Source: an uncultured Nitrospiraceae bacterium (lineage in GTDB: Bacteria > Nitrospirota > Nitrospiria > Nitrospirales > Nitrospiraceae). From it: DNA of 64,000 nt. Every line of letters begins with the position of its first letter. Within the stretch, counting starts at the first letter, position 1. The DNA lies in NCBI GenBank assembly GCA_963706325.1, contig CAVPLT010000004.1:192001-256000 (forward strand). The letters are read 5' to 3'. Below are positions 8,713 through 38,507 of the stretch, piece by piece. A program made the position numbers and the translations under genes. The notes below the pieces were generated by a model, which saw only the letters and a program-made list of their open reading frames with translations, was not told the origin of the DNA and searched no databases.

Positions 8713-8741
8713 TTGACACCAGGCGCTGCCCTCTATAGGGT
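8713..8741 (+). promoter_or_regulatory. Sigma-70 promoter, probably leaderless transcript
   Basis: TTGACA-N17-TAGGGT, with ATG 7 nt after the -10 box. Confidence 0.6.
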
Positions 8742-8748
8742 GACTTGC

Positions 8749-9063
8749 ATGACGACCGAGCCACGTCGGCTTTCCCCTTGCGCGTGCAAGTCCCAAGTCT
8801 CCGCCGCTTCGACGCCACAGAACAACAGTTTCATCATGTTCCTCTGACAGCGATGCTTCCAGAGGTCAACGGCTTGATTTATAACGGCGGCACTCTGGTT
8901 TTTCGATGAGGCGTGCACAGGACGTGACAAGCTGTCTCGCTCGAGCAGAAGCCGCCGCATCGGAGCCGTCGAAGATTCGTTAACGATGTGTTTGGCCAGA
9001 AGTACCGCAAGTTTCGACTCCCGGACAGCGGATGGTTGCAGGACAAAGCTGTCAGCGAGATGA
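8749..9063 (+). CDS. Hypothetical ~104-aa protein hidden by two compensating frameshifts
   Basis: ATG and TGA in the same frame; indels at homopolymers 8771-8777 and 8899-8903 restore a continuous ORF (..FHHVPLTAMLPEVNGLIYNGGTLVFDEACTGRDK..). Confidence 0.45.
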
Positions 9064-9263
9064 GTCAGGGCGAGCCTTGATGCAAGTCGCTCCCGGGCGA
9101 TGGTGTCAAATACTGAATGCGCTGTCCTGGAGGAGCGCTCTGAGGCTCCTGGGGGGATTGTATGTGGCTAGTGGCGTGGTCGCTTCGGCGCAGACCATGA
9201 TAGCGGGGGCGTTTGACTGGCTGTGCAATGCTGAGATCAGGTCGAATTCAACATAAGGGATTT

Positions 9264-9560
9264 ATGAGCATAGAACGTCGTGTTCGATCAAGGCCAGCTG
9301 GTAGGCTCGGGGCATTAGAGGAACGGAGGGTCGAAGGATCCGCTTACGTTCAGGTACGAGCCGCTCGTGATATGGCGCTGGACATCAATACCGTCCAGCT
9401 ACCTAGGTTGAAATCATTGACCGGGATCGGTGAACACTACGCGCAAAAGATCGTGGAGGGTCGGCCATACCGGGATCGGGAAGAATTGCTGACGCGGCAC
9501 ATCTTGCCGCACTACATTTATGGACGCATCATGGAACGGCTTTGCGTGAGTCGGCCGTAG
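9264..9560 (+). CDS. Helix-hairpin-helix (ComEA-like) domain protein
   Basis: LDINT..LKSLTGIGEHYAQKIVEGRPYRDREELL..YGRI. Confidence 0.75.
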   Translation: MSIERRVRSRPAGRLGALEERRVEGSAYVQVRAARDMALDINTVQLPRLKSLTGIGEHYAQKIVEGRPYRDREELLTRHILPHYIYGRIMERLCVSRP

Positions 9561-9668
9561 CGGATACAAGATCGATTGGCTGCAGCCGGTGACCATTCGG
9601 GCTCCCCAAGCCAGGTGTGCTGTCATCAGGTCTGAAACATAGCCTCTAAGATGGAAGGGGACGACTGT

Positions 9669-10346
9669 ATGACACCCACTGGCGAGACGGTAGTGATGAT
9701 GCGTAGGCGCGGATCGCGGTCGGGGTATTGGCGGGAAGTGATAGCGGTGGTGATGGTGACCTGTTTCATGAGCTTGACGCCAGCACATGCAGCCGGCCTT
9801 GAGGAGGGACCGACTGAGGCTGTGAAGGAGACGGTTACGGAACTTCTCTATATCTTGAAAGAGTTTAAAGGCCCGAGCCGTTCCGAAGCACGCCGTTCTG
9901 AAATTGAGCAAGTGATTCGACGCCGAGTACATTACGAGGACATGGCCAAGCGATCTCTGGGATCGTCCTGGGCACAGATGAACGACATGGGGCGGCAGGA
10001 GTATGTGGGGCTCTTCGTGCAATTGCTTCGCGATGCCCTTGCAAACCGGATGATTGAATATTCCGGAGAACGGATCAGCTACCTGTCTGAGCGACGAGAG
10101 TCAGGATTCGCCGAGATCAAGACCAGCCTTGTGGGCGACAAGGTCGACACCTTCATAGACTTTCGATTGATGAATCAGAATGGACAGTGGTTGGTGTATG
10201 ACGCGGTCATGGACGGATCGAGCCTGGTAGGAAGTTACCATGCCCAATTCGCCAGCATAATTCGGGAGGCGTCCTGTGCGCAATTGATGGAGCGAATCAA
10301 AGAAAAAACGTTGATCGTGAAATTATTTGAGAGAAGCGGTTCCTAA
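9669..10346 (+). CDS. mlaC: MlaC/Ttg2D family periplasmic lipid-binding protein
   Basis: Signal peptide; YEDMAKRSLGSSW, YVGLFVQLL, IDFRL..WLVYDAVMDGSSLVGSYHAQFASII. Confidence 0.85.
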   Translation: MTPTGETVVMMRRRGSRSGYWREVIAVVMVTCFMSLTPAHAAGLEEGPTEAVKETVTELLYILKEFKGPSRSEARRSEIEQVIRRRVHYEDMAKRSLGSSWAQMNDMGRQEYVGLFVQLLRDALANRMIEYSGERISYLSERRESGFAEIKTSLVGDKVDTFIDFRLMNQNGQWLVYDAVMDGSSLVGSYHAQFASIIREASCAQLMERIKEKTLIVKLFERSGS

Positions 10347-10398
10347 ATTGTCTAATCCTGGACAAGGTCGAGAGTGGTTATTGCTAACGGAGAGAGCA

Positions 10399-10587
10399 AT
10401 GAGATGTCCCCGCTGTTACGGTCCGATGATGATGATCAAAATGAAGGACATCGTAACTGACACGATGGCTTATGGTTGGGGCTGTCGGCAATGCGGCGCG
10501 GTTATCGATTCCCTAATCGATATTCATCGCCAGTGGCACCTGGAGCCGCGCGCGACGTGGGCGCATTTGGCCGTCGCTTCCTGTTAG
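10399..10587 (+). CDS. Small zinc-ribbon protein
   Basis: MRCPRC..GWGCRQCGAVID, two CxxC pairs; SD GGAGAG. Confidence 0.65.
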   Translation: MRCPRCYGPMMMIKMKDIVTDTMAYGWGCRQCGAVIDSLIDIHRQWHLEPRATWAHLAVASC

Positions 10588-10651
10588 TCGGAATCTGAAT
10601 GAGATGAGCTGAAGTGCGTACCCTCTGGAATCAGGAAGAAGAAACCCCGTT

Positions 10652-10820
10652 ATGCTGAATGCTGCCCTGACGTGTATGGCGCTCGGTCTCATAATTTTGG
10701 GCATAAATTGGACCGGTGTGGCTGAGATGTCGGCACAAAATGTACTGGCTTTTTACTGTCGGCGGTATGCTCCTGATGGGAATTCATCTGGTAACAAGGC
10801 GTCCGGCTCGTGTATGGTAA
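10652..10820 (+). CDS. DUF1328-like small two-TM membrane protein; frameshift in A-run 10737-10740
   Basis: Removing one A gives MLNAALTCMALGLIILGINWTGVAEMSAQMYWLFTVGGMLLMGIHLVTRRPARVW*. Confidence 0.6.
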
Positions 10821-10941
10821 GGCGTCGCGGAAAGTACGGCGACAAAAATTTCTAGATGTCTTGGGGGCTCCTGAGTATGTATCGGTGCAAATTTCGATAG
10901 CCACCGTCATGCCAGAATAGAAAAATGCATTAGGGGGCAGT

Positions 10942-11124
10942 ATGACACCGGAAGAAAGAATTGCGAGCATGACCAAAGCGATCAATCTGGCCATCAAGGT
11001 GATGGGAGATCGTTTTGGGTCGACAGAAGAAGATGTGGCCCGAACCATTCAAGCGTTGAAGGGCTCGCTGCAAACGGTTCCGCAAGAAAAGAACCGGCCC
11101 GTTGCGGACGCCGTACAAGCTTAA
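10942..11124 (+). CDS. Small hypothetical helical protein
   Basis: SD AGGGG upstream of ATG; amphipathic sequence. Confidence 0.55.
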   Translation: MTPEERIASMTKAINLAIKVMGDRFGSTEEDVARTIQALKGSLQTVPQEKNRPVADAVQA

Positions 11125-11239: not shown

Positions 11240-11268
11240 TTGACTACGATCGCTATTGGGCTTAGCCT
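11240..11268 (+). promoter_or_regulatory. Sigma-70 promoter of iscA-forA-forB-porB
   Basis: TTGACT-N17-TAGCCT. Confidence 0.65.
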
Positions 11269-11274
11269 GAGACT

Positions 11275-11376
11275 ATGACGTCCCAAGCACCGCCGACTGT
11301 TCTCTCCCTCGCGCTTCTGCTTTCTTTTCCGCGCGACTGATTGCCAGATCTTCGTCGCTTCTTACGCCAGAGTGTC
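11275..11376 (+). repeat. Conserved 5' leader element, copy 1 (putative cis-regulatory RNA)
   Basis: Collinear identical blocks shared with 15283-15376; CGCGC/GCGCG stem; begins 6 nt after -10 box. Confidence 0.7.
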
Positions 11377-11503
11377 CTGCGCTGACCGGTGATGAACTTC
11401 TCCGTGTACGGAGCGATTGTCGATCCGGCGAAGAATATCTCTCACGCCCGTCCCAACTGAAACAGTTTGTTCGATCCATACAGCGGTAGAAGGGGATAAA
11501 TCT

Positions 11504-11826
11504 ATGATTACCATCACGACGACGGCTGAAGAAAAGATTCGGGAGTTGATGCTGGAGGAAAAGGATACGCTCGGTTTGCGTGTGTATGTGAAGGGCGGAG
11601 GGCTGCCATGGTTATCAGTACGGAATGGCCTTCGAGTCCAAGATGGCGACGACGATACGGTCATCGAAAAGGGTGACGTCAAGGTGATTATGGATTCGCA
11701 AAGCGCTCCGCTGTTGAACGGCTGTGAAGTTGATTATGTCGGATAGTGTTCAAGGGCTCGGGGTTCGCGATCAAGAACCCGCAAGCAAAGACAACGTGCG
11801 GGTGCGGCAGTTCATTCAGCGCGTAA
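11504..11826 (+). CDS. iscA: A-type Fe-S carrier (IscA/ErpA/HesB); four single-G indels
   Basis: [59 protein letters not shown] after indel correction. Confidence 0.88.
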
Positions 11827-11884
11827 CTCGTTACCTAAGGGGCGTGTCTGCGCGGATGTCACTTGAATGAAGGGAGATCGAACC

Positions 11885-13091
11885 ATGGAACCTACATCCC
11901 TGATCGGAACAAAAAATAAGAAGGGGCAGGTCTTCACGGATCCCCGCATCATGATGCGGGAGGCTCCTCGCACCCCGTCGTTCTACACCGGGAGTGAAGT
12001 CATTAAAGAAGCCATCAGGCGCGCCAGTATCGATGTGATGATTGCCTATCCGATCACTCCTCAGAGCGAAGCGGCGGCGTTGATCGGTGAGCTGTTTGCC
12101 GAAGGTTATATCGGCGATTATTTCCGTGGGGAAAGCGAATTTGCTGTGATGTCGCAGTGCGCGGGAGCCGCATTTGGTGGAGCCCGGGTGTTCACGACGA
12201 CGGCCGGACCGGGCACGATGCGGGCCATGGAAAACTTTCCCATGTGGGCCGGCGCGCGCTTGCCGATCCAATGCATTGTGACCTGCCGCGGCATCAATTC
12301 CCCATTGTCGATTCAGCCGGATACCATTGAAATCTCCTACCTGATGCAGACCGGTATGTTGGTGTGGCATGCGGAGACGGCACAGGATTTCTACGACTGG
12401 ATTCTCATGGGTTACATGGTGTCGGAGGAGCCGGACGTGCATTTGCCCTTGGCGCTCTGTTGTGACGGATTTTTTGTCACGCATACCAAAGACGTGGTTG
12501 ATCTCACGCCGACCGACATGTGCCTGCCGCCCTACGATCCTTACCGATCGCCGGTGCCCTTGCATGGATATGGAATGTCCTCCGGTTCGGATGATGCGCG
12601 ATCCATTCATCATGAAGAGCAACTACATCAGTTATGCGACTCACGCAAGTTGGCAACAAGAAATCTGGGCCGCAGCCGAACGGTCGAGAAAACACACCAT
12701 CGCGTGGCTGAATGGACTCATCGAGACGGAAGACGTCGAAGCCGATGTGCTCATCGTCACGTCAGGTACGGCCGTGTCTCAGGGCCGTGAGGCCATCCGT
12801 CTGCTGGCCGACGAGGGAATTCGAGTCGGACTCGTGAAGGTCAAGACGCTCCGGCCCTGGCCGGAAGAAGAAATTAAGGAAGCGACCAAGCACGCCACAC
12901 ATATCATTGTCCCAGAGTTCAATGTGATCGGTTGGATGGCGAAGGAAATCAAGGCCACCATTCCGAGGAGCGAGCGCGTCGTGGCCGGTCCGCGGGTGTG
13001 CGGCGGCATGACCATGCCACCGGAAATTATCGTGGAAGAAATTAAGCGTGCGCTCGGCATACGCTCGACGACCCTCGCCGCTCGCGGCTGA
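11885..13091 (+). CDS. forA: 2-oxoacid:ferredoxin oxidoreductase alpha subunit, ForA-type; frameshift near 12557-12561
   Basis: AYPITPQSE, ESEFAVMS, GPGTMRAMENFPMWAG, KSNYISYATHASWQ, GGMTMPPE; forA versus porA assigned from recalled Hydrogenobacter motifs. Confidence 0.8.
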
Positions 13092-13172
13092 CGGGCAACG
13101 AGTCAACCTGAAGACGGTAGTGACACCACAGTGCAAAAGTGAACCTCAGCAGAGCTGAGAGGAGAGATAAAT

Positions 13173-14070
13173 ATGAGTAAAGAACGCATCACCATTTCCC
13201 CCGATCTCTACGACATTATGCCGGCGGACTATCAGGATTTGGTCAGCAAAGCGACTTATGGCAAGGAAGATCGTGGTTGGAAAGATATTGGTACGTCTAA
13301 GGAACTTATTGAACAGCATTCGCTCTGTGCAGGATGTCCGGAATCCATGGCGTTTCGCTATATCCTGGCCTCGCTTCCCAATCCAGAGGACACGGTGATG
13401 GTCGGCTCGACCGGATGCACGAGTCTCGTGTTTCCGATGGTGGCCGTCCATAATATTCACTCGCTGTTCGGCAATCAGAATGCCATCGCCTCAGGGCTGA
13501 AGCGGGCGTTGAGCGTCCGCTTTCCTGATCGTGTCAAGGATGTGGTGGTGCTGGCGGGTGATGGCGCGACGGTAGACATCGGCTTGGATATGACGCTTCA
13601 AGCATGGTTCCGGCAGGAAAAGTTCACCACCATTTGCTTCGACAATGAACTGTACGCCAATACCGGCGGACAAGAGAGCGGTCTCATGCAGAAGGGTTTC
13701 GTCGCCAAAATGGCGCCGGTCGGAAAGCTTTTCGATAAGGTGCGTCTCGCCCGAGATCGCGCGGGAATCCGGCTGTCACTACATCGTGAATTGCACGGTG
13801 AGCAAGCCGTCACTGGTCGAAAAGGTGGTCCGCAACGCGGTCTTGATCGCTCGGGAAATCGGGCCGACTTATCTTCAGCTCTATACTCCGTGTATTTTGG
13901 AGATCGGTAAGAACAGCATGGAAGGTTTGCAGGAAATGCGAGACTCTGAAAAGCCGGCAGAAAGATTCGCATTCAAGGAATATATCAGCGAGCCGGCAAA
14001 ACAGCTCTTGGCGGAAAGAGACGCCAAGGCAAAGGAAAAGAAAGCCGCCGCGAAGCAATTGGTTTCGTGA
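13173..14070 (+). CDS. forB: 2-oxoacid:ferredoxin oxidoreductase beta subunit, ForB-type; frameshift near 13748-13752
   Basis: LCAGC, TGC, TPP motif AGDGATVDIG..DNELYANTGGQ, YTPCILEIG. Confidence 0.8.
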
Positions 14071-14122
14071 GAGGCGTCCATCTTACCACCGCACGCGCGG
14101 CTACGAGAGAGTGAGGTTTTAG

Positions 14123-15013
14123 ATGAGTCTTGATTATGTGAAATTTACACCCGGATTTGAGCAGTTCATGCCCAAAGAATATCGGGATATGGTCGAACAC
14201 GGCCCATTTGGAAAGAAGACGACCGTCTCGCAAATGGGGAGCTTCAAGGAAATCCTTGAAGAGCACCCGATGTGTGCCGGTTGTGCCATGACGTTGTTCA
14301 TTCGTTTAGCGATCATTGCCTTTCCGAATCCCGAAGACACCATCACGGTCGGGACAGCCGGCTGCGGACGATTGGCGATTTCGCAGGCAGCGATTCCGTT
14401 CGTCTATGGAAATTACGGTGATCAGAATGGCGTCGCCAGCGGCCTTTCGCGTGGGTTACGGCTCCGTTTCGGGGACAAGCCGAAGGATGTTGTGGTGATC
14501 GCAGGTGATGGGGGAACGGCCGACATCGGGTTCCAGCAGGTTTTGCACTCTTGGTTCCGGAAGGAACGTTTTACGACCATCATGCTGGACAACGAGGTGT
14601 ATGGCAACACGGGTGGACAGGAAAGCGGGATGACGACCCGAGGGGCTGTACTCAAGATGGCTCCTCTCGGAAAGAAGTTCGAGAAGATGGATATGGTCAC
14701 GATGGCCAAAGTTTCAGGTTGCGCCTATATCGCCACGGTTGTGCCCAACAATCCGCGGCGAGTGGAAAGCGTCATCAAGAAGGCGGTGTTGATCGCCCGA
14801 GAGGTTGGTCCGACCTACATCCAAGCGTATACGTCCTGCAACATTGAATATGCGATTCCCACCGATAAGGTGATGGAAGATGCGAAGACGGTTGAAGATG
14901 ATCGGTACAAATTCACCGAATATGTCAGTGATGAAGCCAAAGCTTATTTGGCTGAACGATACGGGTATAAAGAGTTCATTCCAAAGGCATCCGCCACGCC
15001 CACCATCGCATAG
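14123..15013 (+). CDS. porB: Pyruvate:ferredoxin oxidoreductase beta subunit, PorB-type
   Basis: EEHPMCAGC, GTAGCGRLAISQAA, AGDGGTADIG..DNEVYGNTGGQ, YTSCNIEY. Confidence 0.85.
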   Translation: MSLDYVKFTPGFEQFMPKEYRDMVEHGPFGKKTTVSQMGSFKEILEEHPMCAGCAMTLFIRLAIIAFPNPEDTITVGTAGCGRLAISQAAIPFVYGNYGDQNGVASGLSRGLRLRFGDKPKDVVVIAGDGGTADIGFQQVLHSWFRKERFTTIMLDNEVYGNTGGQESGMTTRGAVLKMAPLGKKFEKMDMVTMAKVSGCAYIATVVPNNPRRVESVIKKAVLIAREVGPTYIQAYTSCNIEYAIPTDKVMEDAKTVEDDRYKFTEYVSDEAKAYLAERYGYKEFIPKASATPTIA

Positions 15014-15059
15014 TCGGGTCCTGGTCTGAGACTCTTACATGTGACGGGATCGAAAATAC

Positions 15060-15097
15060 TGCTGACGAGCGGGCGATAAAAAACCTGCCCGTCAGCA
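15060..15097 (+). terminator. Stem-loop downstream of porB
   Basis: TGCTGACG..CGTCAGCA inverted repeat; no U-tract. Confidence 0.35.
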
Positions 15098-15247
15098 CGA
15101 TCGCGCACGATGGCAGATCTCACTCGTCTCTATGGTGAATGCCGGTATAGAGAAGGTAAGATCGTGGCCACACAGCATTCCATGCTCCCCCTGGTGAACC
15201 CCAATATATACTGACGGCATGCGGTGAGATAGGGAACCATGCGTCCG

Positions 15248-15276
15248 TTGACACGGAGCCTTCTACACTGTACTGT
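15248..15276 (+). promoter_or_regulatory. Sigma-70 promoter of CsbD-like gene
   Basis: TTGACA-N17-TACTGT. Confidence 0.7.
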
Positions 15277-15282
15277 GCGCAC

Positions 15283-15376
15283 GTGACGTTTTGAACCACG
15301 CCGACTGTCTCATCTCTCGCGCAACCCTTCGGCGCGTCTGATTCTCCGGTCTTCGATGCTTCTACGCCGGAGTTTC
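15283..15376 (+). repeat. Conserved 5' leader element, copy 2 (putative cis-regulatory RNA)
   Basis: Homologous to 11275-11376; CGCGC/GCGCG and CTCCGG/CCGGAG stems; begins 6 nt after -10 box. Confidence 0.7.
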
Positions 15377-15464: not shown

Positions 15465-15713
15465 ATGACACAAGAACAATTCCAACAATTTTGGCTACAA
15501 CTCAAAGCTCCATTGAAAGCCAAATGGGAGAAAATCACCGATAACGATCTCGGAGAGATCCAAGGCAATCTCGCCAAGTTTAACGACATTCTTCAGAAAC
15601 GTTATGGAGATGCGAACAAGGACGAAGTGGGAATCTGGGCCGATCGTCGGCATGCCCATTGGAGCGGAAACTACTATGGATACAAGGATCCTCAGCAGCA
15701 GACTACCGGCTAA
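15465..15713 (+). CDS. CsbD/YjbJ-like small stress protein
   Basis: FWLQLKAPLKAKWEKITDNDLGEIQG..ILQKRYG; SD AAGGAG. Confidence 0.8.
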   Translation: MTQEQFQQFWLQLKAPLKAKWEKITDNDLGEIQGNLAKFNDILQKRYGDANKDEVGIWADRRHAHWSGNYYGYKDPQQQTTG

Positions 15714-20218: not shown

Positions 20219-20248
20219 TTGACCGCTGGTGGCAGCATGAGGTACAGT
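20219..20248 (+). promoter_or_regulatory. Sigma-70 promoter of DEAD-box helicase (long 5' UTR)
   Basis: TTGACC-N18-TACAGT about 165 nt before the start. Confidence 0.55.
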
Positions 20249-20414
20249 GGTCACTAGTGCAGCATTGTATCGGTCCACCGGTGCTGAACTCTTCTATGTG
20301 GGCCGCGCGATCGCATCGCGACCAGGTCCAGTCTGGAGCTGACTCCCTTCGGATTCACCCTCCCCTCGGTTCTCTGATCCCGTCTTAATGCGATCACAAC
20401 GAAAGGATAGCCTC

Positions 20415-21739: not shown

Positions 21740-22084
21740 ATGATGGTAAGTGATCAGAAACACGATGCGACCCGGGCGGTGAGTCAATGGCTTAGAATTC
21801 CTGATGGAACGATGGTGCAACATCGTTTGGATGGGCAAAAGGGGCATATCGACGGACTTACTGAGATTGTTACAGGGCCGAGCAGGAATCCTGACGGTAG
21901 GACTCAGTATCGAATCAATGTTGGCAAGGGAGACAGGGTGCTGATTGCGGAGGAGGATCTCTTGATTGTGACGGATGCCGAGGGGCTAGTCAAAATGGCG
22001 AAGGAGAAGGGTGAATACCGCTCACTCGTCAACAAACAGTTGCGTGGCGTGTTCGGAGAAGACCGCTTCGTCAAGATGGTTTAG
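21740..22084 (+). CDS. Conserved hypothetical protein (possible SH3-like beta fold)
   Basis: SD GGGAGG; RIPDGTMVQHR..GHIDGLTEIV..NPDGRTQYRINV. Confidence 0.7.
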   Translation: MMVSDQKHDATRAVSQWLRIPDGTMVQHRLDGQKGHIDGLTEIVTGPSRNPDGRTQYRINVGKGDRVLIAEEDLLIVTDAEGLVKMAKEKGEYRSLVNKQLRGVFGEDRFVKMV

Positions 22085-27183: not shown

Positions 27184-29124
27184 TCACCCACCGTGGCTTG
27201 AGTGTTTGAGGAAGATAACGGAGAGTGCGGGTAAGGTTAAAGTCAGTGAGTGAGTTCGTCCGTGCAGAGGCACCGGAGTCGCGGAGACTCCACCGCCATT
27301 GCCCCATCCCGCTCCACCGTAAAGGGTGGCGTCACTGTTCAACAACTCTCTCCAATATCCACCTCGTGGTGCTCCGACGCGGTAGTTAGGGCGAGGAACG
27401 GGAGTGAAATTGCAGATCACTAGAATCACGTCATCGGTCGTGCGTGCTTTTCGGATGAGGCTGATTACGCTGGATTCGACATCCTGACAATCAATCCATT
27501 CAATACCGGAGGGGTGGACGTCTCCCTCATGCAGCGCGTGTTCCTGACGATAGGTGCGATTGAGATCGGTGACCCATTGCTGCATACCGCGATGCAAGGG
27601 GTCATCTAATGTGTCCCACTGCAGCTGGCCGTCATGCGCCCATTCAGCTCGTTGGCCGAATTCGCCACCCATAAACAAGAGCTTTTTAGCAGCCTGTGAA
27701 TACATGTGCCCGAATAACACCCGGAGGTTGGCGAATTTGTTCCATTCGTCCCCTGGCATTTTTCCTAACAGCGAACCTTTCCCATAGACCACTTCGTCGT
27801 GTGAGAGGGGCAGCACGAAATTTTCGTGAAAGGCGTAGACCATACGGAAAGTAAGATTGTGATGATGGTATCTCCGGTTGATGGGGTCCTCTTGCATATA
27901 GGACAGCGTGTCATGCATCCAACCCATATCCCATTTCAAGCCGAAGCCTAAGCCACCAAGGTAAGTGGGGCGGGACACCAACGGCCAGGCAGTAGATTCC
28001 TCGGCGATGGTTTGAGCATCAGGATAGTGCCGATAGACCTCTTCATTAAATCGCTTCAAGAATGAAATGGCCTCGAGATTCTCGCGTCCGCCGTATCGGT
28101 TTGGAATCCACTCTCCTTCTTTCCGAGAATAATCCAAATACAGCATGGAGGCCACAGCGTCCACGCGGAGTCCATCAAAGTGATACTTATCCAGCCAGAA
28201 CAGCCCGCTGCTGATGAGAAAGCTCCGCACCTCGTTGCGTCCGAAATTGAAGACAAAGGTGTTCCAGTCCGGTTGGAAGCCCTGCTGCGGATTGGCATGT
28301 TCATAAAGATGCGTGCCGTCGAAGAACCCCAGCCCATGTTCATCGGTAGGAAAGTGGGAGGGCACCCAATCCAGCAAGACCCCAATTCCATGGTTGTGCA
28401 AGGTATCGACAAGATACATGAGGTCTTGCGGCGTCCCGTAATTTCCGGATGGCGCAAAGTAGCCCGTGGTCTGATAACCCCAGGAACCAAAGAACGGATG
28501 GTCCGTCAGCGGAAGAAACTCCACATGCGTGAACCCCATCTGTTGTAAGTATTCGGCGAGGGGAACCGCCAGTTCACGGTAACTCAGCGATCGATTCTGT
28601 TCCTCGGCGATCCGTCTCCAGGATCCCACATGCATTTCATAAATGGCGATAGGTGCGTTTAGCGCATTCGCTTGCCGGCGCCTGCGCATCCAGTCGGCAT
28701 CAGTCCAGTTATAGTCGAGATCCCAGACGATCGACGCCGACTTGGGAGGAATTTCATTGAAGAAGGAGAGCGGGTCGCTCTTATCGACCTGATAGCCGGA
28801 GTAGCGAGACTGAACATGATACTTATACAAGGACCCTTTCGCAGCCTCAGGAATGAATCCTTCCCAAATTCCAGAATGTCCTCTCGGATGGAGCTGGTGC
28901 GTCCCGTCCTGCCAGTCGTTGAAGGATCCGATGACGGATACCCGCTCGGCTTCCGGCGCCCATACCGCAAAGTGAGTCCCTTGTTGCCCATTGACGCTGC
29001 CGAGATGCGCGCCGAGCTTGTCGTACAGTTGAAACTGCGTGCCCTCGTTGAACAGAAAGACATCATCATCGGTCAGCTTGCTGATTGAGTGAATGGGCAT
29101 CTGTGTCGTGTCCTGTTGAGTCAT
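27184..29124 (-). CDS. glgB: 1,4-alpha-glucan branching enzyme
   Basis: [60 protein letters not shown]. Confidence 0.97.
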
Positions 29125-30776
29125 TGTTTCACCACACTTCCGGGCTGGCCGGTTGCGCAGGAGTCACCGGTATTTTCTTTCCGCTCGCCCCACACCTCTC
29201 GATCGCTAGTAGCGGTCGATGCATTCATGCACTGTAGGATGCCGGTCAGAGGAAGGTCGACCCAATCCGGCCGGTTATTTAGTTCATAGGCGAGTTCATA
29301 AAGTGCCTTGTGGAGCAGATGCCTGTCCAGAAGAAGATGGAATTCTTGGTGAGACCGCGGTGAGAACGGCGCCTCGCCGGCAATGGCGTGATAACCTCGG
29401 AGAAATGCCGTGCGGGCGCTTTGATACCACTGTTCCGCCCAAGATATTAGACTCTGCGTCGTCTGAAACTCGCCTCTTTGCCGTAATGCGGCATGGGCTG
29501 CATAGTGGAACGAGCGAACCATACCGGCGAGATCGACAACGGGGATATGCTTGGCTCGCCGTTCTGCCAGCGGTCTGGCTGGCTCTCCCTCATAATCAAT
29601 AATCACAAAGTCCTCTCCCGTGTAGAGGACCTGTCCGAGATGATAATCGCCATGGCAACGGATGCGCATGGCCGTCAAGGGCGAATTGCCCAGAGACCCT
29701 AACCGATCCAGAATGAGGGATTGCTGTCCCAAGACCACTTGCGCCTGTGCCTGCTTGATTTCTGGGAGGGTACACAAGCGATCGCGTAGCAATGTCAGTG
29801 CACGAATGGCCGACTGTTGCATGGCTTGAACCCGCGACTGTATGTAAGACGAAGAGCAGACTTCGGCGGCAAAGGCAGGATCGTCGCTGGTTTCTCCCAG
29901 CGCCATATGGAGTTCCGCTGTGCGCCGCCCTAACAGGCGCGCCGCATCCACGAAATCAGGTTCAAAAGAGCTATTGTTCGAAGCACTTGAGGAGACGCGG
30001 TCGAAGTAATGGGAGAGTTGGGACAGCGCATATTCCCATGCATTGCCGCGATTGGCGACGAAGGTTTGTGCCAATACCAGTGTTGTAGGATCGTTGCTGC
30101 GCTGGTGATATTCCAGGGCACCCACAAGGGAAGGAGAATGACGAAAATTTCGAGCGGTGAGGGTACGACCTATTTCCAATTCAGGATTTATGCCTGGCTC
30201 GACCCGGCGATAAAGCTTCATGATGACGCGGTCGCCGAACTTCACCGACGTATTACTCTGTTCGGCTTTCATCACGCTTATAGCGGCCGCGTGGGGGCGT
30301 TCTGCTACCTCGTCAAATAATGCCGTTGCCGATCCCACGACCGTGCCTGAGGTTCCTTGAAATTGCGCGCCTTGTCCCATACTAGCCAAAAGCGAATAGG
30401 CACATGCTTCATTCCACAAGGCATCGTACAGCACTCCGACGTGATTTCCTTGAGGACCGAGCACCGTGACCGCCCCAATGACAGCGCTCGAATGATCGCG
30501 TCTAATTCGGTCAGCCTCCGCTTCGAAGGCCGCGGTCATCAAAACCGTATACGTTTCTACGTCTCTTTCGGAGTACGAGACCTCCACGAATCCCAGCAGC
30601 ATAGGAGAATCACCTCTGTCGACTCGTAGGATATCCGTAAACTTAGCGGAGCGGATGGTCTTGGCCTTACCTCCAAACCACCGGGACGATGTGAGGAATG
30701 CGGGCAGCAAGCCCTCGAGTTCCGTATGGGCCTGGCCATCAACGACCCTCTCCCAATTATTGTGAATCGTGATCAT
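29121..30776 (-). CDS. mak: Maltokinase (Mak/Pep2)
   Basis: [65 protein letters not shown]. Confidence 0.9.
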
Positions 30777-30799
30777 GAGTCCTTTCCCCACCGCTCCCT

Positions 30800-32875
30800 T
30801 TACAGGAAATAGTCAAAGTCCTGTTCACGCCGCATATTTCGCCGCACAGCAAAAATTTGGACCGGCGTTGAATGTGGGTCGAGCTGCACATAGTTTCGAG
30901 ACCCATGCCAGAGATAGTAGGCATGCGTCAGCAAATCATGGACCTGGAAGGGACGGTTGTCCTGTAGCCCCAATGCTGCGAGGTCCAACTCGAGCCAGCC
31001 CGAATGGATGTGATGCGGACTTAAATTCACCACAACGAGAATGACGTTCTTCCCGTCGTGCGTCTGTTTGCTGTAGGCGATCAGTTGGTCGTTGTCGATA
31101 GTGTGAAATCGCAGGCTGCCATCACCGTGCAGCGCGGGGTTGTCGCGGCGAATACGGTTGATCGCTCCGATAAACTCCTTCAAGCTGTCGGGCCTCGCGA
31201 TATCCCAACGTCGAATTTCATATTTCTCCGAGTCCAAATACTCCTCGCTGCCGGGTTTATGAGGTCGGTCTTCGTACAACTCAAACGCAGGTCCGTAAAT
31301 GCCATAGTTGGCGCCCAGCGTGGCGGCCAAGGCCAGTCGAGCCATGAAGACCGGGCGCCCGCCATGCTGGAGATGTTCGGTCAGAATATCCGGCGTATTG
31401 GTCCAGAGGTTGGGGCGAAAATACTCTTGCACTTGGGTCCTGGTCAGTTCAGTGAAATAGTCGGTCAGTTCTTGCTTGGTGTTGCGCCAGGCAAAGTAGG
31501 TGTAGGACTGGGTAAAGCCAACTTTGGCGAGGTGATACATGACCTTCGGCCGCGTGAAGGCTTCCGCAAGAAAAATGATATCCGGATCCCGCTGCTTGAT
31601 GTCGGCGATCAGCCATTTCCAAAAAGGGAATGGTTTCGTGTGAGGATTGTCGACGCGGAAGATGCGGATGCCTCGATCGATCCAGTACTGCACGACGGCC
31701 CGGAGTTCTTTCCACAATTCGTCAGCGGCTTCGCTCTCAAAATTCAGCGGAAAAATATCCTGATACTTTTTGGGAGGATTTTCCGCAAACTGGATCGTGC
31801 CATCAGGACGGGTGGTAAACCATTCCGGGTGCTCGGTCACGTATGGATGATCGGGAGAACATTGAAAGGCTAAATCAAGTGCGAGCTCGATATTCAGCGC
31901 CTTGGCTGCATCAATGAGGCGCTTGAAATCGTCCAGAGTTCCCAGCTCTGGATGGATGGCCGTATGGCCGCCGTCGCTCGCGCCGATGGCCCAGGGACTG
32001 CCCACCGATTTGGAGTCTCCGCGCGGGTCATTATTCGGTCCTTTCCGGTGCGTTTCCCCAATGGGATGAATCGGGGGAAGGTAGAGCACGTCAAATCCCA
32101 TTTCAGCGATATAGGGGAGACGAGATTCACAATCTCTGAATGTGCCGTGCGGCCGATCGTTGCTTACGGCAGAACGTGGGAACATTTCGTACCAGGCGCT
32201 GAATCGAGCTCTGGGACGATCGACCACCACGGCAAGCTCTCTGTCATAGGTCGTGGCCAGGTGCCGATCAACACACGACATCATCACGTCTGCGACCTCT
32301 TGTCCAAGCAGTAGGTCGAGCTGAGCCTGCAGTCGAGTTTCTGATGATGACAGTACCCGATCCATGTCTTTCAGCCGCTGACTCGAGTCAGCCGGCGCGC
32401 GAGAGGCCGCCTCCTCGAGCAGGCGTTTGCCAATTACAAGATCCACCCGTATGTCTTGCTTCGCTTCTACTCGTTTGCGCATATCGCGTCGCCAGGTGGC
32501 AAAATGATCCACCCAGCCCATCACGCTATATCGATACTGGCCGATCTCGGTAACGTCGAATGATGCGTACCATCGATCATTGGCAAGGAACGTAAGCGGG
32601 ATTTCTCGCCATCCATTATCCTGCTCATGGCAGTACCGAAGGACTCCGCGTACGATGTCATGCCCATCTGCGAAGAGGTCCGCCTCGACGAGAATGGTGT
32701 CTCCGACTACTCGCTTGATGGGGTGTCGTCCGCCGTCAAGCTCTGGTCGGACATGCTCGATCACCACCCGTTGGCGCCGTTCGTCTTTGACGTACTCGGA
32801 CGACGAAGAATTTCTCGGCGCCACCTGACTCGCGGTGGTGTCTCGTGTTGACTTGTTGGTGCTGGCCTTGTTCAT
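30800..32875 (-). CDS. glgE: Alpha-1,4-glucan:maltose-1-phosphate maltosyltransferase
   Basis: AWYEMFPRS, LYLPPIHPIG, GSPWAIG, ENPPKKYQDI, FRVDNPHTKP, AEAFT, NTPDIL. Confidence 0.97.
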   Translation of the reverse strand: MNKASTNKSTRDTTASQVAPRNSSSSEYVKDERRQRVVIEHVRPELDGGRHPIKRVVGDTILVEADLFADGHDIVRGVLRYCHEQDNGWREIPLTFLANDRWYASFDVTEIGQYRYSVMGWVDHFATWRRDMRKRVEAKQDIRVDLVIGKRLLEEAASRAPADSSQRLKDMDRVLSSSETRLQAQLDLLLGQEVADVMMSCVDRHLATTYDRELAVVVDRPRARFSAWYEMFPRSAVSNDRPHGTFRDCESRLPYIAEMGFDVLYLPPIHPIGETHRKGPNNDPRGDSKSVGSPWAIGASDGGHTAIHPELGTLDDFKRLIDAAKALNIELALDLAFQCSPDHPYVTEHPEWFTTRPDGTIQFAENPPKKYQDIFPLNFESEAADELWKELRAVVQYWIDRGIRIFRVDNPHTKPFPFWKWLIADIKQRDPDIIFLAEAFTRPKVMYHLAKVGFTQSYTYFAWRNTKQELTDYFTELTRTQVQEYFRPNLWTNTPDILTEHLQHGGRPVFMARLALAATLGANYGIYGPAFELYEDRPHKPGSEEYLDSEKYEIRRWDIARPDSLKEFIGAINRIRRDNPALHGDGSLRFHTIDNDQLIAYSKQTHDGKNVILVVVNLSPHHIHSGWLELDLAALGLQDNRPFQVHDLLTHAYYLWHGSRNYVQLDPHSTPVQIFAVRRNMRREQDFDYFL

Positions 32876-33573
32876 AGGTGCGATAACTGGTCGGGTTTAC
32901 GGTTATGATGAACGAATCGACGTTCGAGCGCGTCGCGCATAAGGTGCCGCGCACCCAATCCCACGGCTAGCGCGATCGCGAGCACCACCCCACCGAACGT
33001 AATGGAGAAGGCTGCGATCACGATCTCCTTGGCGATGCCCAACTGGGTCAGCACCATCGCGAAGGTGAAGAGCAAGAGCCCCCAGCGCACCAGTCCCGCA
33101 ACGATACGGGCTTCTTCCACCTGAGCATTCACGGCGGCAATCAGCGCCGCCTCGGCAAAGAAGTTGGCGCAGAGCACGCCCACGAGGAGGACGAGGGATG
33201 CGGCCAGGACATTCGGTAGAAAGGCGACGATCTGACTGATTAAATTAGCCGTGGCCGGTAAGTTCATCGCATCCACGCCCATGAACGCGAACAAGAGGAA
33301 GACGATCCAAAACAAGACTCTGCTGACGACCATAGAGACCGGTTGTCGAACACCGGCTTGGGACAATGGCTGGGCAATGCCCAACCGTTCGCAGAATGAA
33401 TCAAAGCCAAAGGTTCGGAGGACGCGTAGGGTGAGTATCTTTATGATCCATGCTGCCATCAGGCCCAACGCCAAGAAGGTGAGTAAAGCGAGGAGCCGCG
33501 GCAATACCTGCAGAATCTGAATGACGGTGTCACGAAAGCCGGCGACCATTGTTTCTCTCCACAGGTCACTCAT
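32872..33573 (-). CDS. CmpX-like / conserved TM-helix membrane protein (MscS-associated)
   Basis: Multiple TM helices; FLPNVLAA, LTQLGIAKEIV..FGGVVLAIALAVGLGAR. Confidence 0.8.
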   Translation of the reverse strand: MSDLWRETMVAGFRDTVIQILQVLPRLLALLTFLALGLMAAWIIKILTLRVLRTFGFDSFCERLGIAQPLSQAGVRQPVSMVVSRVLFWIVFLLFAFMGVDAMNLPATANLISQIVAFLPNVLAASLVLLVGVLCANFFAEAALIAAVNAQVEEARIVAGLVRWGLLLFTFAMVLTQLGIAKEIVIAAFSITFGGVVLAIALAVGLGARHLMRDALERRFVHHNRKPDQLSHL

Positions 33574-34888
33574 CGCGCCACCTCCATTGTTCAACCAGAT
33601 AGGACTTTGATTGCTCAAATTGCTTGCAGAGTGCCTCCACGGTTCTGTCCACTTGATCCCCGTCGCCGTGCTGTGTTTCCAACACAAAGGAGGCTGTACG
33701 GCCTAGATAGAGTGGCGTCAGCGACTTCAGCATATGCTCCCTGTGCAAGGTTTGGTCGTGGTAGGCAAGGGCAAAATCATAGACCGTCTGCACCCAGAGG
33801 GCTGGTGGAAACCGGAAGTCCTCCGGGGCCTGCATATCGAGGGTCAGGATCTGCCCCAAGGTATCTTGCGAAAGGATCAATTCCCACAGCGGGAGCAGAT
33901 CGCGAACTCCTTGCTTGAATCCGCTGACCATGCGGCCGGTCTGCAAGGGGCCAGGGTCGGGCGCCGGTTCGGCGGTGCCATACAGAGGCACCTCAATGGA
34001 TTCTTTGGTCCGCGCCCAGGAAGATTCGTATTCTTCCATTGAGTGAAAAATGCCGCCGACGGTTTGGGCGAGGACAACGGATAGATCGACAGCCCCAATT
34101 TTCGTCTCCTGATCTCTGGTTCCGAGAAAGGTGTGACAGACGCGATAGTTGCCCGCCAGAGCGGCCGTCGTCATCCAGCCGTCCACGCTGAATTTTCCAC
34201 TGGCGCCTGTCCACGTCGATCGGCTGTGCAGGTCGCGCGCGAATTTGCCCGACAGGGCGTAGGCGCCCCCGCTCGGGTACCGTAAGCGTTTCCCGTACAG
34301 CGCCCTCGTTAATGGATACAGCAGGTTGGAAACCAAGGTGCCTTCATAGCGGTGGCGGCGGTAGAGGGGAACCACGAAATCTTCGCCGGCTTCGTATACC
34401 GGTCTGGCCAGTTGATTGATCCAGGTGGTACTAAGCGAACGAAGCTGTCCCTCAAGGATGAGGCACACTTTCGGTTGAAGCTGTTCCGCGGCGAGGCAGA
34501 AGTTCCGAATACTCTCATCTCGCCCTGGGAAACCGGATTCTCTCGTCAAATTGGCATAGGTACTTGCCGCGTTGGGAATGAGTCGGACCGGAACAATGCC
34601 CGCCGCGATCCGATCGATGATGCCGGGCGTACCGTCTTGCGAGCCAGCATCGCAATTCACAAGCGACGCCGAAGTATTCGGAAATGACTCTCGCAATCCC
34701 TGGAGAAGTGATTGTACGAGTGATTCAATCGTGCCCGCATTGTTCAGCGTCAGTAGCCCCACCATGATGTCGATGGTTTCAGTCGGGCGCTCGCGGTCAA
34801 GGATGGGGGAGGCAGGCGCCGCCTGTTCCTGTGCCAGCTTATCCGCTGTCTTGTTCCCGCCTTGCGGGATCGAAGCTAAGGTCGTCAT
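33566..34888 (-). CDS. GT2 glycosyltransferase, glucosylglycerate/mannosylglycerate-synthase-like, degenerate motifs
   Basis: VGLLTLNNAGTI, NCDAGSQDGT, VPLYRRHRYEGTL..YPLTRALYG, LTPLYLGRTASFV. Confidence 0.75.
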   Translation of the reverse strand: MTTLASIPQGGNKTADKLAQEQAAPASPILDRERPTETIDIMVGLLTLNNAGTIESLVQSLLQGLRESFPNTSASLVNCDAGSQDGTPGIIDRIAAGIVPVRLIPNAASTYANLTRESGFPGRDESIRNFCLAAEQLQPKVCLILEGQLRSLSTTWINQLARPVYEAGEDFVVPLYRRHRYEGTLVSNLLYPLTRALYGKRLRYPSGGAYALSGKFARDLHSRSTWTGASGKFSVDGWMTTAALAGNYRVCHTFLGTRDQETKIGAVDLSVVLAQTVGGIFHSMEEYESSWARTKESIEVPLYGTAEPAPDPGPLQTGRMVSGFKQGVRDLLPLWELILSQDTLGQILTLDMQAPEDFRFPPALWVQTVYDFALAYHDQTLHREHMLKSLTPLYLGRTASFVLETQHGDGDQVDRTVEALCKQFEQSKSYLVEQWRWRDE

Positions 34889-34904
34889 TGGTTACGCGTG
34901 GCCA

Positions 34905-36119
34905 TTAGGATAGGGGCAAGAGCTTCAACAATGTCAGGTAATCGCTCAGCTGCCTCGTGATAAGAAAATTGCGCCGCACATGTTCGCGCGCCATGGCTCC
35001 CATTCTATTCATGAGTCCCGGGTTGTTGAGTAAGTGACGAGTCCGGAATCCCGCGCCTTCGACGGTATGGATAACATATCCCGTAACGCCATCGACAATT
35101 TGAGCGGCGATGCCCCCAGCCGTGCTCCCGACCACGGGTTTTCCTTTCCACATGGCTTCGGAAACGGTCAGGCCAAATCCTTCCTTAATGGACTTTTGCA
35201 GCACGACCGTGGCGCTCCGCTGCAATGCGTTGATTTCAAGGTCTGCTTCAGGAGGGAGTTGAATGACATGAATATCGGCATCGCGGCCTGCCGCCTCACA
35301 AAGTTCTCCAAGAACCGCTTCACCCTCCGGGTCATGCATCACACCGGCCCCGGCGAGCACCAACTGACAGTCGTGGTGCTTTTTCACGAGCCTATAGGCC
35401 TGAATGGCGCCTAGAGGATCCTTAAACCGGTCAAACCGGGCGACCTGTAACAGCATAGGTTTGGTCCGGGGAATGCCGAGACGATCCATGATTTGAGTGA
35501 TTTCAGACCGCCCCATCTCGCGATTCTTCGGACTCAACGGGTCAATGGACGGAGAGATCAAGAATTTGGGGATCGGCAGTCGTTGGGCAAAGCCGGAGAG
35601 CGAAAAAATCGCCGCGTCGTACTTCAACACAGATCGTCGAAGAAAAGTCCAGGCGGGGCGCTGCGGCTGTGCCAGATCCAGATGGCAACGCCAGAGCCAG
35701 CAGCCATTGGTCCGATAGTCCACGAGGCCAGCCGGCTGGTGGTCGTGAACCATGACGACGTCTGCTTCGAGGTTGAGCGCCTTGGCGTTGCGTTCCATGA
35801 TAGTCGAATAGGTATGGTACATCTGGTCGGTGATTTTGTCGTCCCGTCCCTGGAGCGCATTCAGCATGTGATTGACCACCACGAAATACTCTTGCGTCCC
35901 CGCCAGAACTTCCCACCGTGCGTCGACGCCTAGGGATACCATCATGGGAACAAGGCGGCGCAACACTTCCGACATCCCGCCTCCGTAGCGGACGGCGTTG
36001 AGGTGGAGGAAGCTTTTGCCCTTCACCAGATCGCTCAGCCGGTAAAGAAAATCGACGGTGCCTTTCGGCGACACGTCGCGATATTCATCCAAGGACGAGT
36101 TCACAGATGACTCCCTCAC
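34905..36119 (-). CDS. treT: Trehalose synthase TreT (GT4)
   Basis: GGGMSEVL, HDHQP, WRCHLD, SIDPLSPKN, RFDRFKDP, QKSIKEGFGLTVSEAMWK; start may be GTG at 36104. Confidence 0.85.
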   Translation of the reverse strand: MRESSVNSSLDEYRDVSPKGTVDFLYRLSDLVKGKSFLHLNAVRYGGGMSEVLRRLVPMMVSLGVDARWEVLAGTQEYFVVVNHMLNALQGRDDKITDQMYHTYSTIMERNAKALNLEADVVMVHDHQPAGLVDYRTNGCWLWRCHLDLAQPQRPAWTFLRRSVLKYDAAIFSLSGFAQRLPIPKFLISPSIDPLSPKNREMGRSEITQIMDRLGIPRTKPMLLQVARFDRFKDPLGAIQAYRLVKKHHDCQLVLAGAGVMHDPEGEAVLGELCEAAGRDADIHVIQLPPEADLEINALQRSATVVLQKSIKEGFGLTVSEAMWKGKPVVGSTAGGIAAQIVDGVTGYVIHTVEGAGFRTRHLLNNPGLMNRMGAMAREHVRRNFLITRQLSDYLTLLKLLPLS

Positions 36120-36149
36120 GCCTGAAAGGGCGTGGCCGTCTCGCGTGAA

Positions 36150-37829: not shown

Positions 37830-37832
37830 CGA

Positions 37833-38507
37833 TTAGACTTTCGCCGAATCACCGGTGAGGAATTCGTCGCACGCGGTGATGAGTCTGGATCGTAGGCGTT
37901 CCAGGCTGCCTTGGTATGGATTGATGGCGCGGATACAATCGGCCAATTTCCCAAGGCCAAAGTCCGAACGAATCCATGTCGAAAAATCATTTTCTTCCCG
38001 TCGTAATCGAAAATGGGCCTCGAACATATGGAAATAAATGGTACTCACGTCGATATCAGCCACCATGTCGCGAAACTCTTGCAGCGTGCGCGCCTCCAAG
38101 CCGAGCGGCACTTGAAGAATGCGTGAGCGTTTGAAGTGGAACGGCTTGCCGAACACGACTCGGGGAATAATGGGTGTTCGGGAGAGGTGGTCATCGATGA
38201 TGGAGATGATCTCTTCCCGCAACTCTTCCAAGTCCGGATAACCAAAGGGATCAATGACAGCCAACCGTTCGCCTAGGACATGATCACCGATCTGCATGAC
38301 TACCCATTGGGCGAAATCGTTAGGATAAGCGCCTTCAATCAAGCCATGCCGGAGAAAATAGCTGTGGGTATGGAAGTGAATGGAATCCAGGGGAACTTCT
38401 TCGATCAGTCCTGCCAGCTCTTTCTCGTCATCCGCTTGATGAGCGATGCTTTCCTGCAATTCGCTGCAACCAATGAACGCAAAAGGAGACTTTGCAATGA
38501 GCGCCAC
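37833..38507 (-). CDS. DUF5752 (OrfY-like) protein
   Basis: Duplicated motif: SIHFHTH..YPNDFAQWV..LGERLA / TIYFHMFE..NDFSTWI..LADCI; upstream of treS/treT. Confidence 0.8.
   Translation of the reverse strand: MALIAKSPFAFIGCSELQESIAHQADDEKELAGLIEEVPLDSIHFHTHSYFLRHGLIEGAYPNDFAQWVVMQIGDHVLGERLAVIDPFGYPDLEELREEIISIIDDHLSRTPIIPRVVFGKPFHFKRSRILQVPLGLEARTLQEFRDMVADIDVSTIYFHMFEAHFRLRREENDFSTWIRSDFGLGKLADCIRAINPYQGSLERLRSRLITACDEFLTGDSAKV

What the first reader, a model, noticed from the sequence alone, without database searches (positions are those of the whole stretch)
11240..15376. Candidate new cis-regulatory RNA: homologous ~100-nt leader at the TSS of two unrelated transcription units
Seen: 11275-11376 and 15283-15376 share collinear blocks RTGACGT-N9-CGCCGACTGT-N7-CTCGCGC-[loop 16 vs 9 nt]-GCGCGWCTGATT-N6-TCTTCG-N2-GCTTC(T)TACGCCRGAGTKTC. 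Each begins exactly 6 nt after the -10 box of a TTGACW-N17-TAnnnT promoter. CGCCGACTGT and TCGCGC sit at identical offsets (+16, +34), while promoter spacers, the hairpin loop and downstream sequence differ. The CGCGC/GCGCG stem is kept despite a different loop. Copy 2 forms CTCCGG/CCGGAG and TCTGAT/ATCAGA stems; copy 1 can pair TCTTCGTCG with downstream CGGCGAAGA. Downstream genes are iscA-forA-forB-porB and a CsbD-like gene. I do not recognise the motif as a known Rfam family. Inference: riboswitch, protein- or sRNA-binding leader linking alternative rTCA carboxylase subunits to a stress regulon. An old promoter duplication is the alternative.
Basis: partly seen in the sequence, partly recalled or inferred. 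Interest (0 to 1): 0.78.

Follow-up and report, generated by a model that had tools for sequence, protein, structure and literature searches.

The report
Multi-copy Nitrospira RNA rod leader
Nitrospira bacteria place the same ~100-letter rod-shaped RNA at the very start of several stress and spare-enzyme operons; it matches no catalogued RNA family and probably decides whether those transcripts are completed or kept.

Summary
Confirmed and larger than reported. The two leaders belong to an RNA family with no Rfam match: 6 copies in this genome (a third, truncated, at window 8749-8822), matches in 125 of 151 genomes of the family (Nitrospiraceae by record titles), up to 13 per genome, almost none elsewhere in the phylum. 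It is selected as + strand RNA (pair-breaking changes suppressed 5-7-fold, G·U tolerated, ~8 compensatory events), though a tree-aware covariation test found no significant pair. A TTGAC-N17/18-xAxxxT promoter lies 4-7 nt upstream in 99 of 122 copies; first genes (CsbD-like, DUF1328/BON/Hsp20, IscA with duplicate forA/forB/porB, Zn-ribbons) are co-oriented and lost together with it. No terminator, specific anti-SD pairing, upstream operator or co-occurring protein was found. Best guess (about 40%): a fold-masked, C-rich Rho-loading attenuator like the pgaA leader; next, a protein-bound 5' stabiliser. Start sites and function are untested.

The parts
11240..11268 (+). Predicted sigma70-type promoter of copy 1 (TTGACT, 17 nt, TAGCCT)
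   Evidence: Sequence; family-wide registration 99 of 122; not called by generic scan; TSS not observed
11275..11374 (+). RNA rod, copy 1 (iscA leader); somewhat decayed: three helix pairs broken, MFE z 0.10
   Evidence: 76.3 bits with model R2, to whose training set it belongs; fold
11504..11826 (+). iscA, second copy (end approximate; frame broken in the assembly by single-base indels)
   Evidence: PF01521; indels absent from RNA contigs of three runs; core paralogue on C7
11867..13091 (+). forA (2-oxoacid:ferredoxin oxidoreductase alpha), second copy; apparent frameshift near 12556 is an assembly error
   Evidence: PF01855, PF17147; 89% to core copy on C5
13173..14070 (+). forB-type beta subunit, second copy; apparent frameshift near 13749 is an assembly error
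Evidence: PF02775; 98% over 189 aa to core copy on C5.
14123..15013 (+). porB-type beta subunit, second copy
   Evidence: PF02775; 91% to core copy on C1
15248..15276 (+). Predicted promoter of copy 2 (TTGACA, 17 nt, TACTGT)
   Evidence: Sequence
15283..15374 (+). RNA rod, copy 2 (apical helix 15318-15322/15332-15336, shortest cap of the family, 9 nt)
   Evidence: 83.5 bits with R2, training member
15465..15713 (+). CsbD-like small protein
   Evidence: No Pfam hit itself; its 78%-identical paralogue hits PF05532 at E 0.004, below cut-off
8713..8741 (+). Predicted promoter of a third copy (TTGACA, 17 nt, TAGGGT)
   Evidence: Sequence
8749..8822 (+).
   Evidence: 49.5 bits, E 5e-12 with R2, not in its training alignment; folds as the shortened rod, z 0.15; orthologues intact in G001, G018, G004
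9213..11124 (+). Genes downstream of the third copy: HHH_3 protein, MlaC, Zn-ribbon protein, small 60-aa protein
   Evidence: Pfam; lost together with the elements in element-negative congeners

Best explanation
A new family of cis-acting RNA leaders of Nitrospira. The first ~100 nt of the transcript fold into one rod: P1 (5' end paired, one A·C mismatch), P2, P3, P4, P5, P6, separated by 2x2, 2x2, 4x4 and 3x3 loops that hold almost only C and U, and capped by a 9-23-nt C/U loop. Shown computationally: the fold, its strand, its position after a promoter, co-orientation and co-loss with the genes. Inferred (about 85%): it acts in cis on these operons. Inferred (about 40%, committed mechanism): it is a conditional Rho attenuator. 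Whatever tips the metastable rod (a binding protein that reads the invariant helices and loop-initial UC steps, or temperature or pH acting on the C·C, U·C and A·C mismatches) would decide whether Rho stops RNA polymerase in the 50-190-nt spacer before the first gene. One leader thereby ties spare rTCA catalytic subunits, IscA and CsbD/BON/DUF1328/Hsp20-type proteins into one accessory regulon. The signal and its direction are not known.
For: Structure: 95.8% of 2,895 cells paired, 12 of 24 pairs with a two-sided change, 0 of 500 shuffles as high, slid controls 26-49%; RNAalifold finds P2-P6 unaided; folded alone, median pair probability at 37 C is 0.84-0.99 for P2-P6 over 230 copies; median MFE z -2.55 for 60 homologues. 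On 136 sequences not collected by pattern, WC pairs change to G·U rather than A·C (inner A-U 19:4, inner G-C 20:8), about 8 compensatory events; U>C rate 0.14 paired against 0.72 unpaired, G>A 0.08 against 0.51, while pair-keeping A>G is not reduced, 0.40 against 0.32. Internal loops 1,870 of 1,901 letters pyrimidine. Cis position: 139 of 139 recognised first genes co-oriented; co-loss. Rho model: C-over-G skew 0.28, 65% pyrimidine, YC 0.25 per nt, each above the 90th percentile of 293 promoter-like control sites (0.22, 59%, 0.20); spacer rod-to-AUG median 116 nt with terminator-like sites in 6 of 116; rho present; precedent of a hairpin-masked Rut site in the pgaA leader (PMC12360218, passages).
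Against: No direct evidence of premature termination or of Rho action. A home-made tree-aware covariation test found no significant pair (best structure pair E about 18). The minus strand folds about as well by MFE (z -2.30). C/U-only loops may simply prevent misfolding or serve a protein, and need not imply Rho. The 90 nt after the rod have no C skew (-0.02). The rod is predicted to survive 50 C, which does not suit a simple thermometer. In whole leaders at equilibrium the rod competes with downstream pairings (median probability 0.41). No candidate protein co-occurs with the element. 93 of 232 elements had no recognised first gene, and 20 of 122 lack TTGAC.
Confidence: 0.4

Rival explanations
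1. Protein-bound 5'-terminal stabiliser or decay switch: the rod buries the 5' end and, bound by a sequence-specific protein (an RRM, cold-shock or helicase partner), sets mRNA half-life; the regular mismatches avoid a long perfect duplex that RNase III would cut.
For: The rod starts at the predicted +1 and pairs it; helix identities are conserved beyond pairing (0-10 changes per inner paired column); no WC run above 5-6 bp; some copies lead operons with an RRM protein or a DEAD-box helicase.
Against: P1 is the least conserved helix and is not in the RNAalifold consensus; a stabiliser does not need a ~116-nt spacer; RRM genes are in 41 of 41 and the SH3-like gene in 35 of 41 genomes regardless of the element.
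Confidence: 0.25
2. The rod is released (by termination or cleavage) as a stable ~100-nt RNA that acts in trans, as a protein sponge or through its C/U cap on ribosome-binding sites of other mRNAs.
For: Self-contained fold with paired ends; many copies per genome; cap rich in CUUCC/UUCCU that pairs with any genome RBS about equally well.
Against: No U-run after the rod and few terminators; always co-oriented with and lost with specific genes; cap sequence is the fastest-changing part (35-66 changes per column) and is deleted in window copy 3.
Confidence: 0.12
3. Riboswitch aptamer for a second messenger, metabolite or ion.
For: Copy number and mixed gene content resemble second-messenger riboswitch regulons (recalled); strong sequence conservation.
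Against: Unbranched; loops constrained only to pyrimidine; no shared expression platform; no Rfam riboswitch match.
Confidence: 0.1
4. Translational switch or thermometer: the opened rod strands or the cap pair with the downstream ribosome-binding site.
For: Forbidding the rod lowers predicted SD accessibility from 0.45 to 0.32 over 116 leaders; a few copies have 12-14-bp matches (L007, L178, L037); own-RBS energy -10.9 against -10.6 within families, permutation p 0.01 without correction for kinship.
Against: Own RBS ranks at the median 48th percentile among 200 unrelated genome RBS, 4% in the top 5%; shuffled strands pair as well; SD lies a median 116 nt away.
Confidence: 0.08
5. Not a regulatory RNA: leftover of promoter duplication, a dispersed mobile repeat, or a DNA operator array.
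For: Patchy presence, not found in 22 of 40 chosen genomes; lies in an accessory block; covariation not significant.
Against: Strand-specific G·U tolerance; fixed register to a promoter whose spacer varies; constant orientation; no transposase-like cluster recognised among the 45 commonest ORF clusters downstream (read by eye); not found in viral contigs, phages or plasmids.
Confidence: 0.05

Closest known systems
E. coli pgaA leader (CsrA-controlled, Rho-dependent attenuator); rpoS leader
   Same: Long 5' leader in which a hairpin could hide a C-rich Rho loading site (PMC12360218, passages; PMC4052769, abstract start); stress-type output.
   Different: Those are single-locus leaders; this is a repeated, sequence-conserved module with a regular mismatch rod. 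No CsrA-type GGA loop; Rho action here is untested.
yjbJ motif WRC-39-1 (Narunsky 2024, PMC11109978)
   Same: Candidate RNA upstream of a CsbD-like gene.
   Different: Streptococcus only, two hairpins with an intrinsic terminator, 30 nt from the SD (passages); ours is one rod, no terminator, many gene types.
Y RNA / YrlA
   Same: About 100 nt, paired 5' and 3' ends, pyrimidine-rich loop (features recalled).
   Different: No Rfam match; no TROVE/Ro60 gene found in this genome; no own terminator.
6S RNA and small SRP RNA
   Same: Rod-like folds with internal loops (recalled).
   Different: No match; a separate 6S-like site exists at C4:878387; size, copy number and pyrimidine-only loops differ.
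Cuckoo (CCUCCUCCC-loop) sRNAs, RNA thermometers (ROSE, FourU), cspA leader
   Same: C/U-rich loop; pyrimidine mismatches; long stress-gene leaders (recalled).
   Different: No tandem small hairpins, cap sequence not conserved, SD not inside the structure and not specifically paired.
Mobile/repeat long-stem motifs such as MRSC-65-2 (PMC11109978)
   Same: Single long stem, several copies per genome.
   Different: Those show inconsistent orientation and transposase links; ours is promoter-registered and co-oriented.

Membership tests
Any Rfam 15 family | Match at gathering score | tested here: not met
Cis-regulatory structured 5' leader | Conserved secondary structure on the transcribed strand | tested here: met
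   formal covariation not significant
Cis-regulatory structured 5' leader | Between promoter and co-oriented gene | tested here: met
   99 of 122; 139 of 139 recognised first genes, 93 unclassified
Cis-regulatory structured 5' leader | Measured start site and effect on downstream expression | not testable with these tools
   Only RNA contigs available
Rho-dependent attenuator | C>G, YC-rich tract in an untranslated leader, no intrinsic terminator, Rho present | tested here: met
Rho-dependent attenuator | Rho-dependent premature 3' ends and a conditional switch | not testable with these tools
   Needs Term-seq or in vitro transcription
Riboswitch | Expression platform (terminator or anti-SD) | tested here: not met
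   6 of 116 terminator-like; RBS percentile 0.48; no shared downstream fold
Riboswitch | Specific ligand binding | not testable with these tools
   Needs in-line probing
RNA thermometer | SD sequestered in a heat-labile helix | tested here: not met
   SD a median 116 nt away; rod predicted stable to 50 C
Y RNA | Ro60 (TROVE) partner in the genome | tested here: not met
   0 matches in G000, 96% complete
6S RNA | RF00013 match, ~180 nt | tested here: not met
   Only match lies elsewhere
Leader-peptide attenuator | Conserved translated uORF | tested here: inconclusive
   AUG at +1 with stop at codon 4 in 67 of 88, no tree-aware support; copy 1 lacks it
Mobile dispersed repeat | Random orientation, transposase link, presence on mobile elements | tested here: not met
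   target-site duplications not tested

The most novel reading that the evidence does not exclude
The rod is a new class of sensor RNA in which regularly spaced pyrimidine-pyrimidine and A·C mismatches read a physical signal (acidity or cold) or a dedicated protein and gate Rho or RNA polymerase directly, so that an RNA module rather than a transcription factor defines an accessory stress-and-repair regulon, including spare CO2-fixing subunits, across Nitrospira.
Probability: 0.2. Interest if true: 0.9.

Novelty: new variant of a known kind. Interest (0 to 1): 0.72.

Why it matters
Nitrospira drive nitrite and complete ammonia oxidation in soils, groundwater and water treatment, yet my searches found no regulatory RNA described for them. 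This motif marks a regulon directly (up to 13 promoters per genome), links duplicate rTCA catalytic subunits and IscA to CsbD/BON/DUF1328/Hsp20-type proteins, and gives many unknown small proteins a shared context. The architecture (unbranched rod, pyrimidine-only symmetric loops, no platform) is unlike catalogued riboswitches and thermometers and is cheap to test in vitro and in E. coli reporters.

Tried and rejected
Anti-SD switch: no better than control RBS. Intrinsic terminators: 6 of 116. Upstream operator: no column above 0.5 bit from -80 to -1 relative to TTGAC in 190 promoters, apart from weak bias at -9 and -2/-1. 'Nitrospira lacks a stress sigma, so RNA replaces it': rejected, the genome has RpoD, two more group-1/2-like sigmas and an RpoH-like one; which sigma reads these promoters is open. 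Partner candidates: SH3-like protein 21740-22084 (no family; 35 of 41 genomes) and RRM proteins (41 of 41) do not track the element. Y RNA, 6S. Leaderless tripeptide ORF: uninformative once kinship is considered. Home-made R-scape-like test: nothing significant. RNA runs: contigs only; one contig spans 10912-12688 across copy 1, so no start could be seen and DNA in the library is not excluded; low cover over copy 2 proves nothing. Cold-adaptation idea from soil and ice runs: not tested; PMC6606698, opened on a recalled DOI, has no mention of cold, iscA, porA or forA. Viral contigs 0 with two patterns; phage and plasmid blastn none. The weak f11 match (L131, 26.5 bits) was not examined. The 80 metagenome loci served only as extra sequences.
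Full report
Observation. The two stretches are homologous as described; score 70 against a maximum of 60 in 20,000 random genome windows. Both begin 6 nt after a TAnnnT hexamer that lies 17 nt after TTGACW. The generic promoter scan calls neither. Rfam gives nothing for them, nor for a near-consensus homologue or 20 homologous loci.

It is a family. The own genome holds five strong copies and one degenerate copy: before iscA-forA-forB-porB, two CsbD-like genes, DUF1328-BON-DUF2934-Hsp20, a secreted protein followed by a NuoB-type gene, and a truncated copy at window 8749-8822. A sequence-only model without the promoter matched 125 of 151 genomes of the family, 37 of 39 genera, 482 matches, up to 13 per genome (three of the 125, G112, G066 and G133, are unpublished and enter this tally only). 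With the structural model, a phylum-wide draw gave 15 of 18 in the family and 2 of 132 outside it: one strong match in the same class (L129) and one weak, unexamined. A pattern scan of GTDB genomes stopped at 120 stretches; of the 80 shown with titles, 77 name Nitrospira or its higher taxa, one a 'Deltaproteobacteria' MAG (L135, with the same DUF1328-CsbD-BON context) and two 'uncultured bacterium'. Nothing was found in viral contigs, phages or plasmids. Presence is patchy: 22 of 40 hand-picked genomes (mostly earlier negatives) had no match, several of them single-contig. In four negative congeners whose interval could be read (G007, G009, G029, G005; G033 ended at a contig break) the block between the uracil-DNA glycosylase-like gene and the DEAD-box gene lacks both elements and their genes; G004 and G001 keep parts, with csbD then sitting behind another element-led unit.

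Structure. I aligned 121 distinct hits of at least 45 bits, out of 128 found in the first 113 loci; these are top-scoring hits, which favours conservation. The whole element is one rod: P1 UGACGU/ACGCCA with an A·C mismatch, P2 GAGC/GCUU, P3 CG/CG, P4 GACUG/CRGUC, P5 AUC/GAU, P6 CGCGC/GCGCG, joined by symmetric loops and capped by 9-23 nt. On that alignment 95.8% of cells pair, 12 of 24 pairs show a two-sided change, none of 500 shuffles reaches these values, and slid controls give 26-49% (the structure was derived from the same sequences and shuffles ignore kinship). RNAalifold recovers P2-P6 but not P1. Against this, my R-scape-like test on 261 sequences found no significant pair (best structure pair E about 18; P4, P6 and P5 pairs ranked 3, 10 and 26); the helices barely vary, so power is low. 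The stronger evidence is directional. On 136 sequences not collected by pattern, parsimony events from WC pairs go to G·U rather than A·C (inner A-U 19:4, p 0.001; inner G-C 20:8, p 0.018; outer 18:8 and 21:11), with about 8 compensatory events in P3-P6 (261-sequence version). Mutation bias does not explain it: U>C falls from 0.72 unpaired to 0.14 paired and G>A from 0.51 to 0.08, while A>G stays at 0.32 and 0.40. This fixes the + strand as the folding strand although MFE alone does not (z -2.55 against -2.30, 60 of 261 sequences). Fourteen internal-loop columns are 98.4% pyrimidine.

Position. 100 of 122 hits have TTGAC 33-37 nt upstream, 99 with a -10-like hexamer (commonest TAGGGT, TAGCGT, TAGCAT) 4-7 nt before the motif (chance 0.0045). 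No operator is conserved upstream in 190 promoters. Of 232 elements, 139 had a first gene matching one of 11 patterns that I defined from genes seen downstream; all 139 are co-oriented; 93 were unclassified. Identity between elements of different gene contexts (0.69-0.77) is close to that within contexts (0.75-0.81), while spacers share no consensus. The forA, forB, porB and iscA genes of the window are second copies of core genes. Their frameshifts are assembly errors: the same single-base differences are absent from RNA contigs of up to four runs.

Mechanism. No platform was found: terminator-like sites in 6 of 116 leaders, no U-run after the rod; pairing to the own RBS ranks at the 48th percentile of 200 control RBS drawn from 420, although forbidding the rod lowers predicted SD access (0.45 to 0.32) and a few copies show long matches. 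The leader is unusual in make-up: C-over-G skew 0.28, 65% pyrimidine and 0.25 YC per nt over 227 copies, against 90th percentiles of 0.22, 59% and 0.20 at 293 promoter-like sites; a spacer of 49-185 nt, median 116, follows (115 leaders with AUG within 300 nt; longer ones left out); rho is present. I therefore favour a fold-masked Rho-loading attenuator on the model of pgaA, at about 40%; a protein-bound 5' stabiliser (25%), a released trans-acting RNA (12%), a riboswitch (10%), an anti-SD switch (8%) and a non-RNA explanation (5%) follow. Fold, strand, register and co-loss are shown computationally; transcription start, Rho action, signal and partner are inferred or unknown. The genome has further group-1/2-like sigma factors, so sigma control may act in addition. 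The RRM and SH3-like neighbours do not track the element.

Literature. Ten searches gave no description of this motif; the library lacks most subscription papers. Features of Y RNA, 6S, SRP, cuckoo RNAs, thermometers and second-messenger riboswitch regulons are recalled. The scan's own notes hold nothing on this RNA; one note reports phage-borne copies of similar oxidoreductase subunits.

Verdict. A real, apparently undescribed, multi-copy structured RNA leader family of Nitrospira with an unusual architecture; mechanism open but directly testable. Interest 0.72.

Noticed in passing
window 11599-13749: Single-base indels at 11599, 11645, 11742, 11752, 11874, 11880, 12556 and 13749 break iscA, forA and forB in the assembly but are absent from RNA contigs of several runs: assembly errors, not pseudogenes.
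   Followed up: yes
window 8749-8822: Third copy of the RNA with apical helix and cap deleted but re-closed by a new 5-bp helix.
   Followed up: yes
L005, L012, L017, L020, L021, L035, L084: Back-to-back divergent pairs of promoter-plus-element about 220-250 nt apart, usually iscA/forB side against DUF1328 side.
   Followed up: partly
L284 886-2377; L273 2525-3832: A divergent subfamily leads an operon of an SH3-like hypothetical protein, a basic small protein and an RRM RNA-binding protein; in other loci a DEAD-box helicase follows the first gene.
   Followed up: partly
window 20219-20387: The DEAD-box helicase gene has its own TTGAC/TACAGT-like promoter and a pyrimidine-rich leader with a CGCGCGATCG stretch reminiscent of the rod, not matched by the model.
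   Followed up: no
window 21740-22084: Nitrospira-specific 114-aa protein with no Pfam or PHROG family; language-model neighbours include DUF3104 at 0.88, a lead only.
   Followed up: partly
L001 4251-4595: The protein behind many CsbD-like genes belongs to a phage family of unknown function, phrog_16527.
   Followed up: no
window 27184-38552: Cluster that reads as glycogen/trehalose metabolism (branching enzyme, maltokinase, GlgE-like, TreT-like, TreS-like; named from recall of the translations) close to the element-led block.
   Followed up: no
G000:C4:878387-878461 (L268): Partial 6S RNA match, 40 bits, below the gathering score.
   Followed up: no
window 11275, 15283 and homologues: The predicted +1 often opens a three-codon leaderless frame (67 of 88 AUG copies); no tree-aware support.
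   Followed up: yes
window ~55368-55670 (-): An RRM RNA-binding protein gene, one of three in the genome.
   Followed up: no
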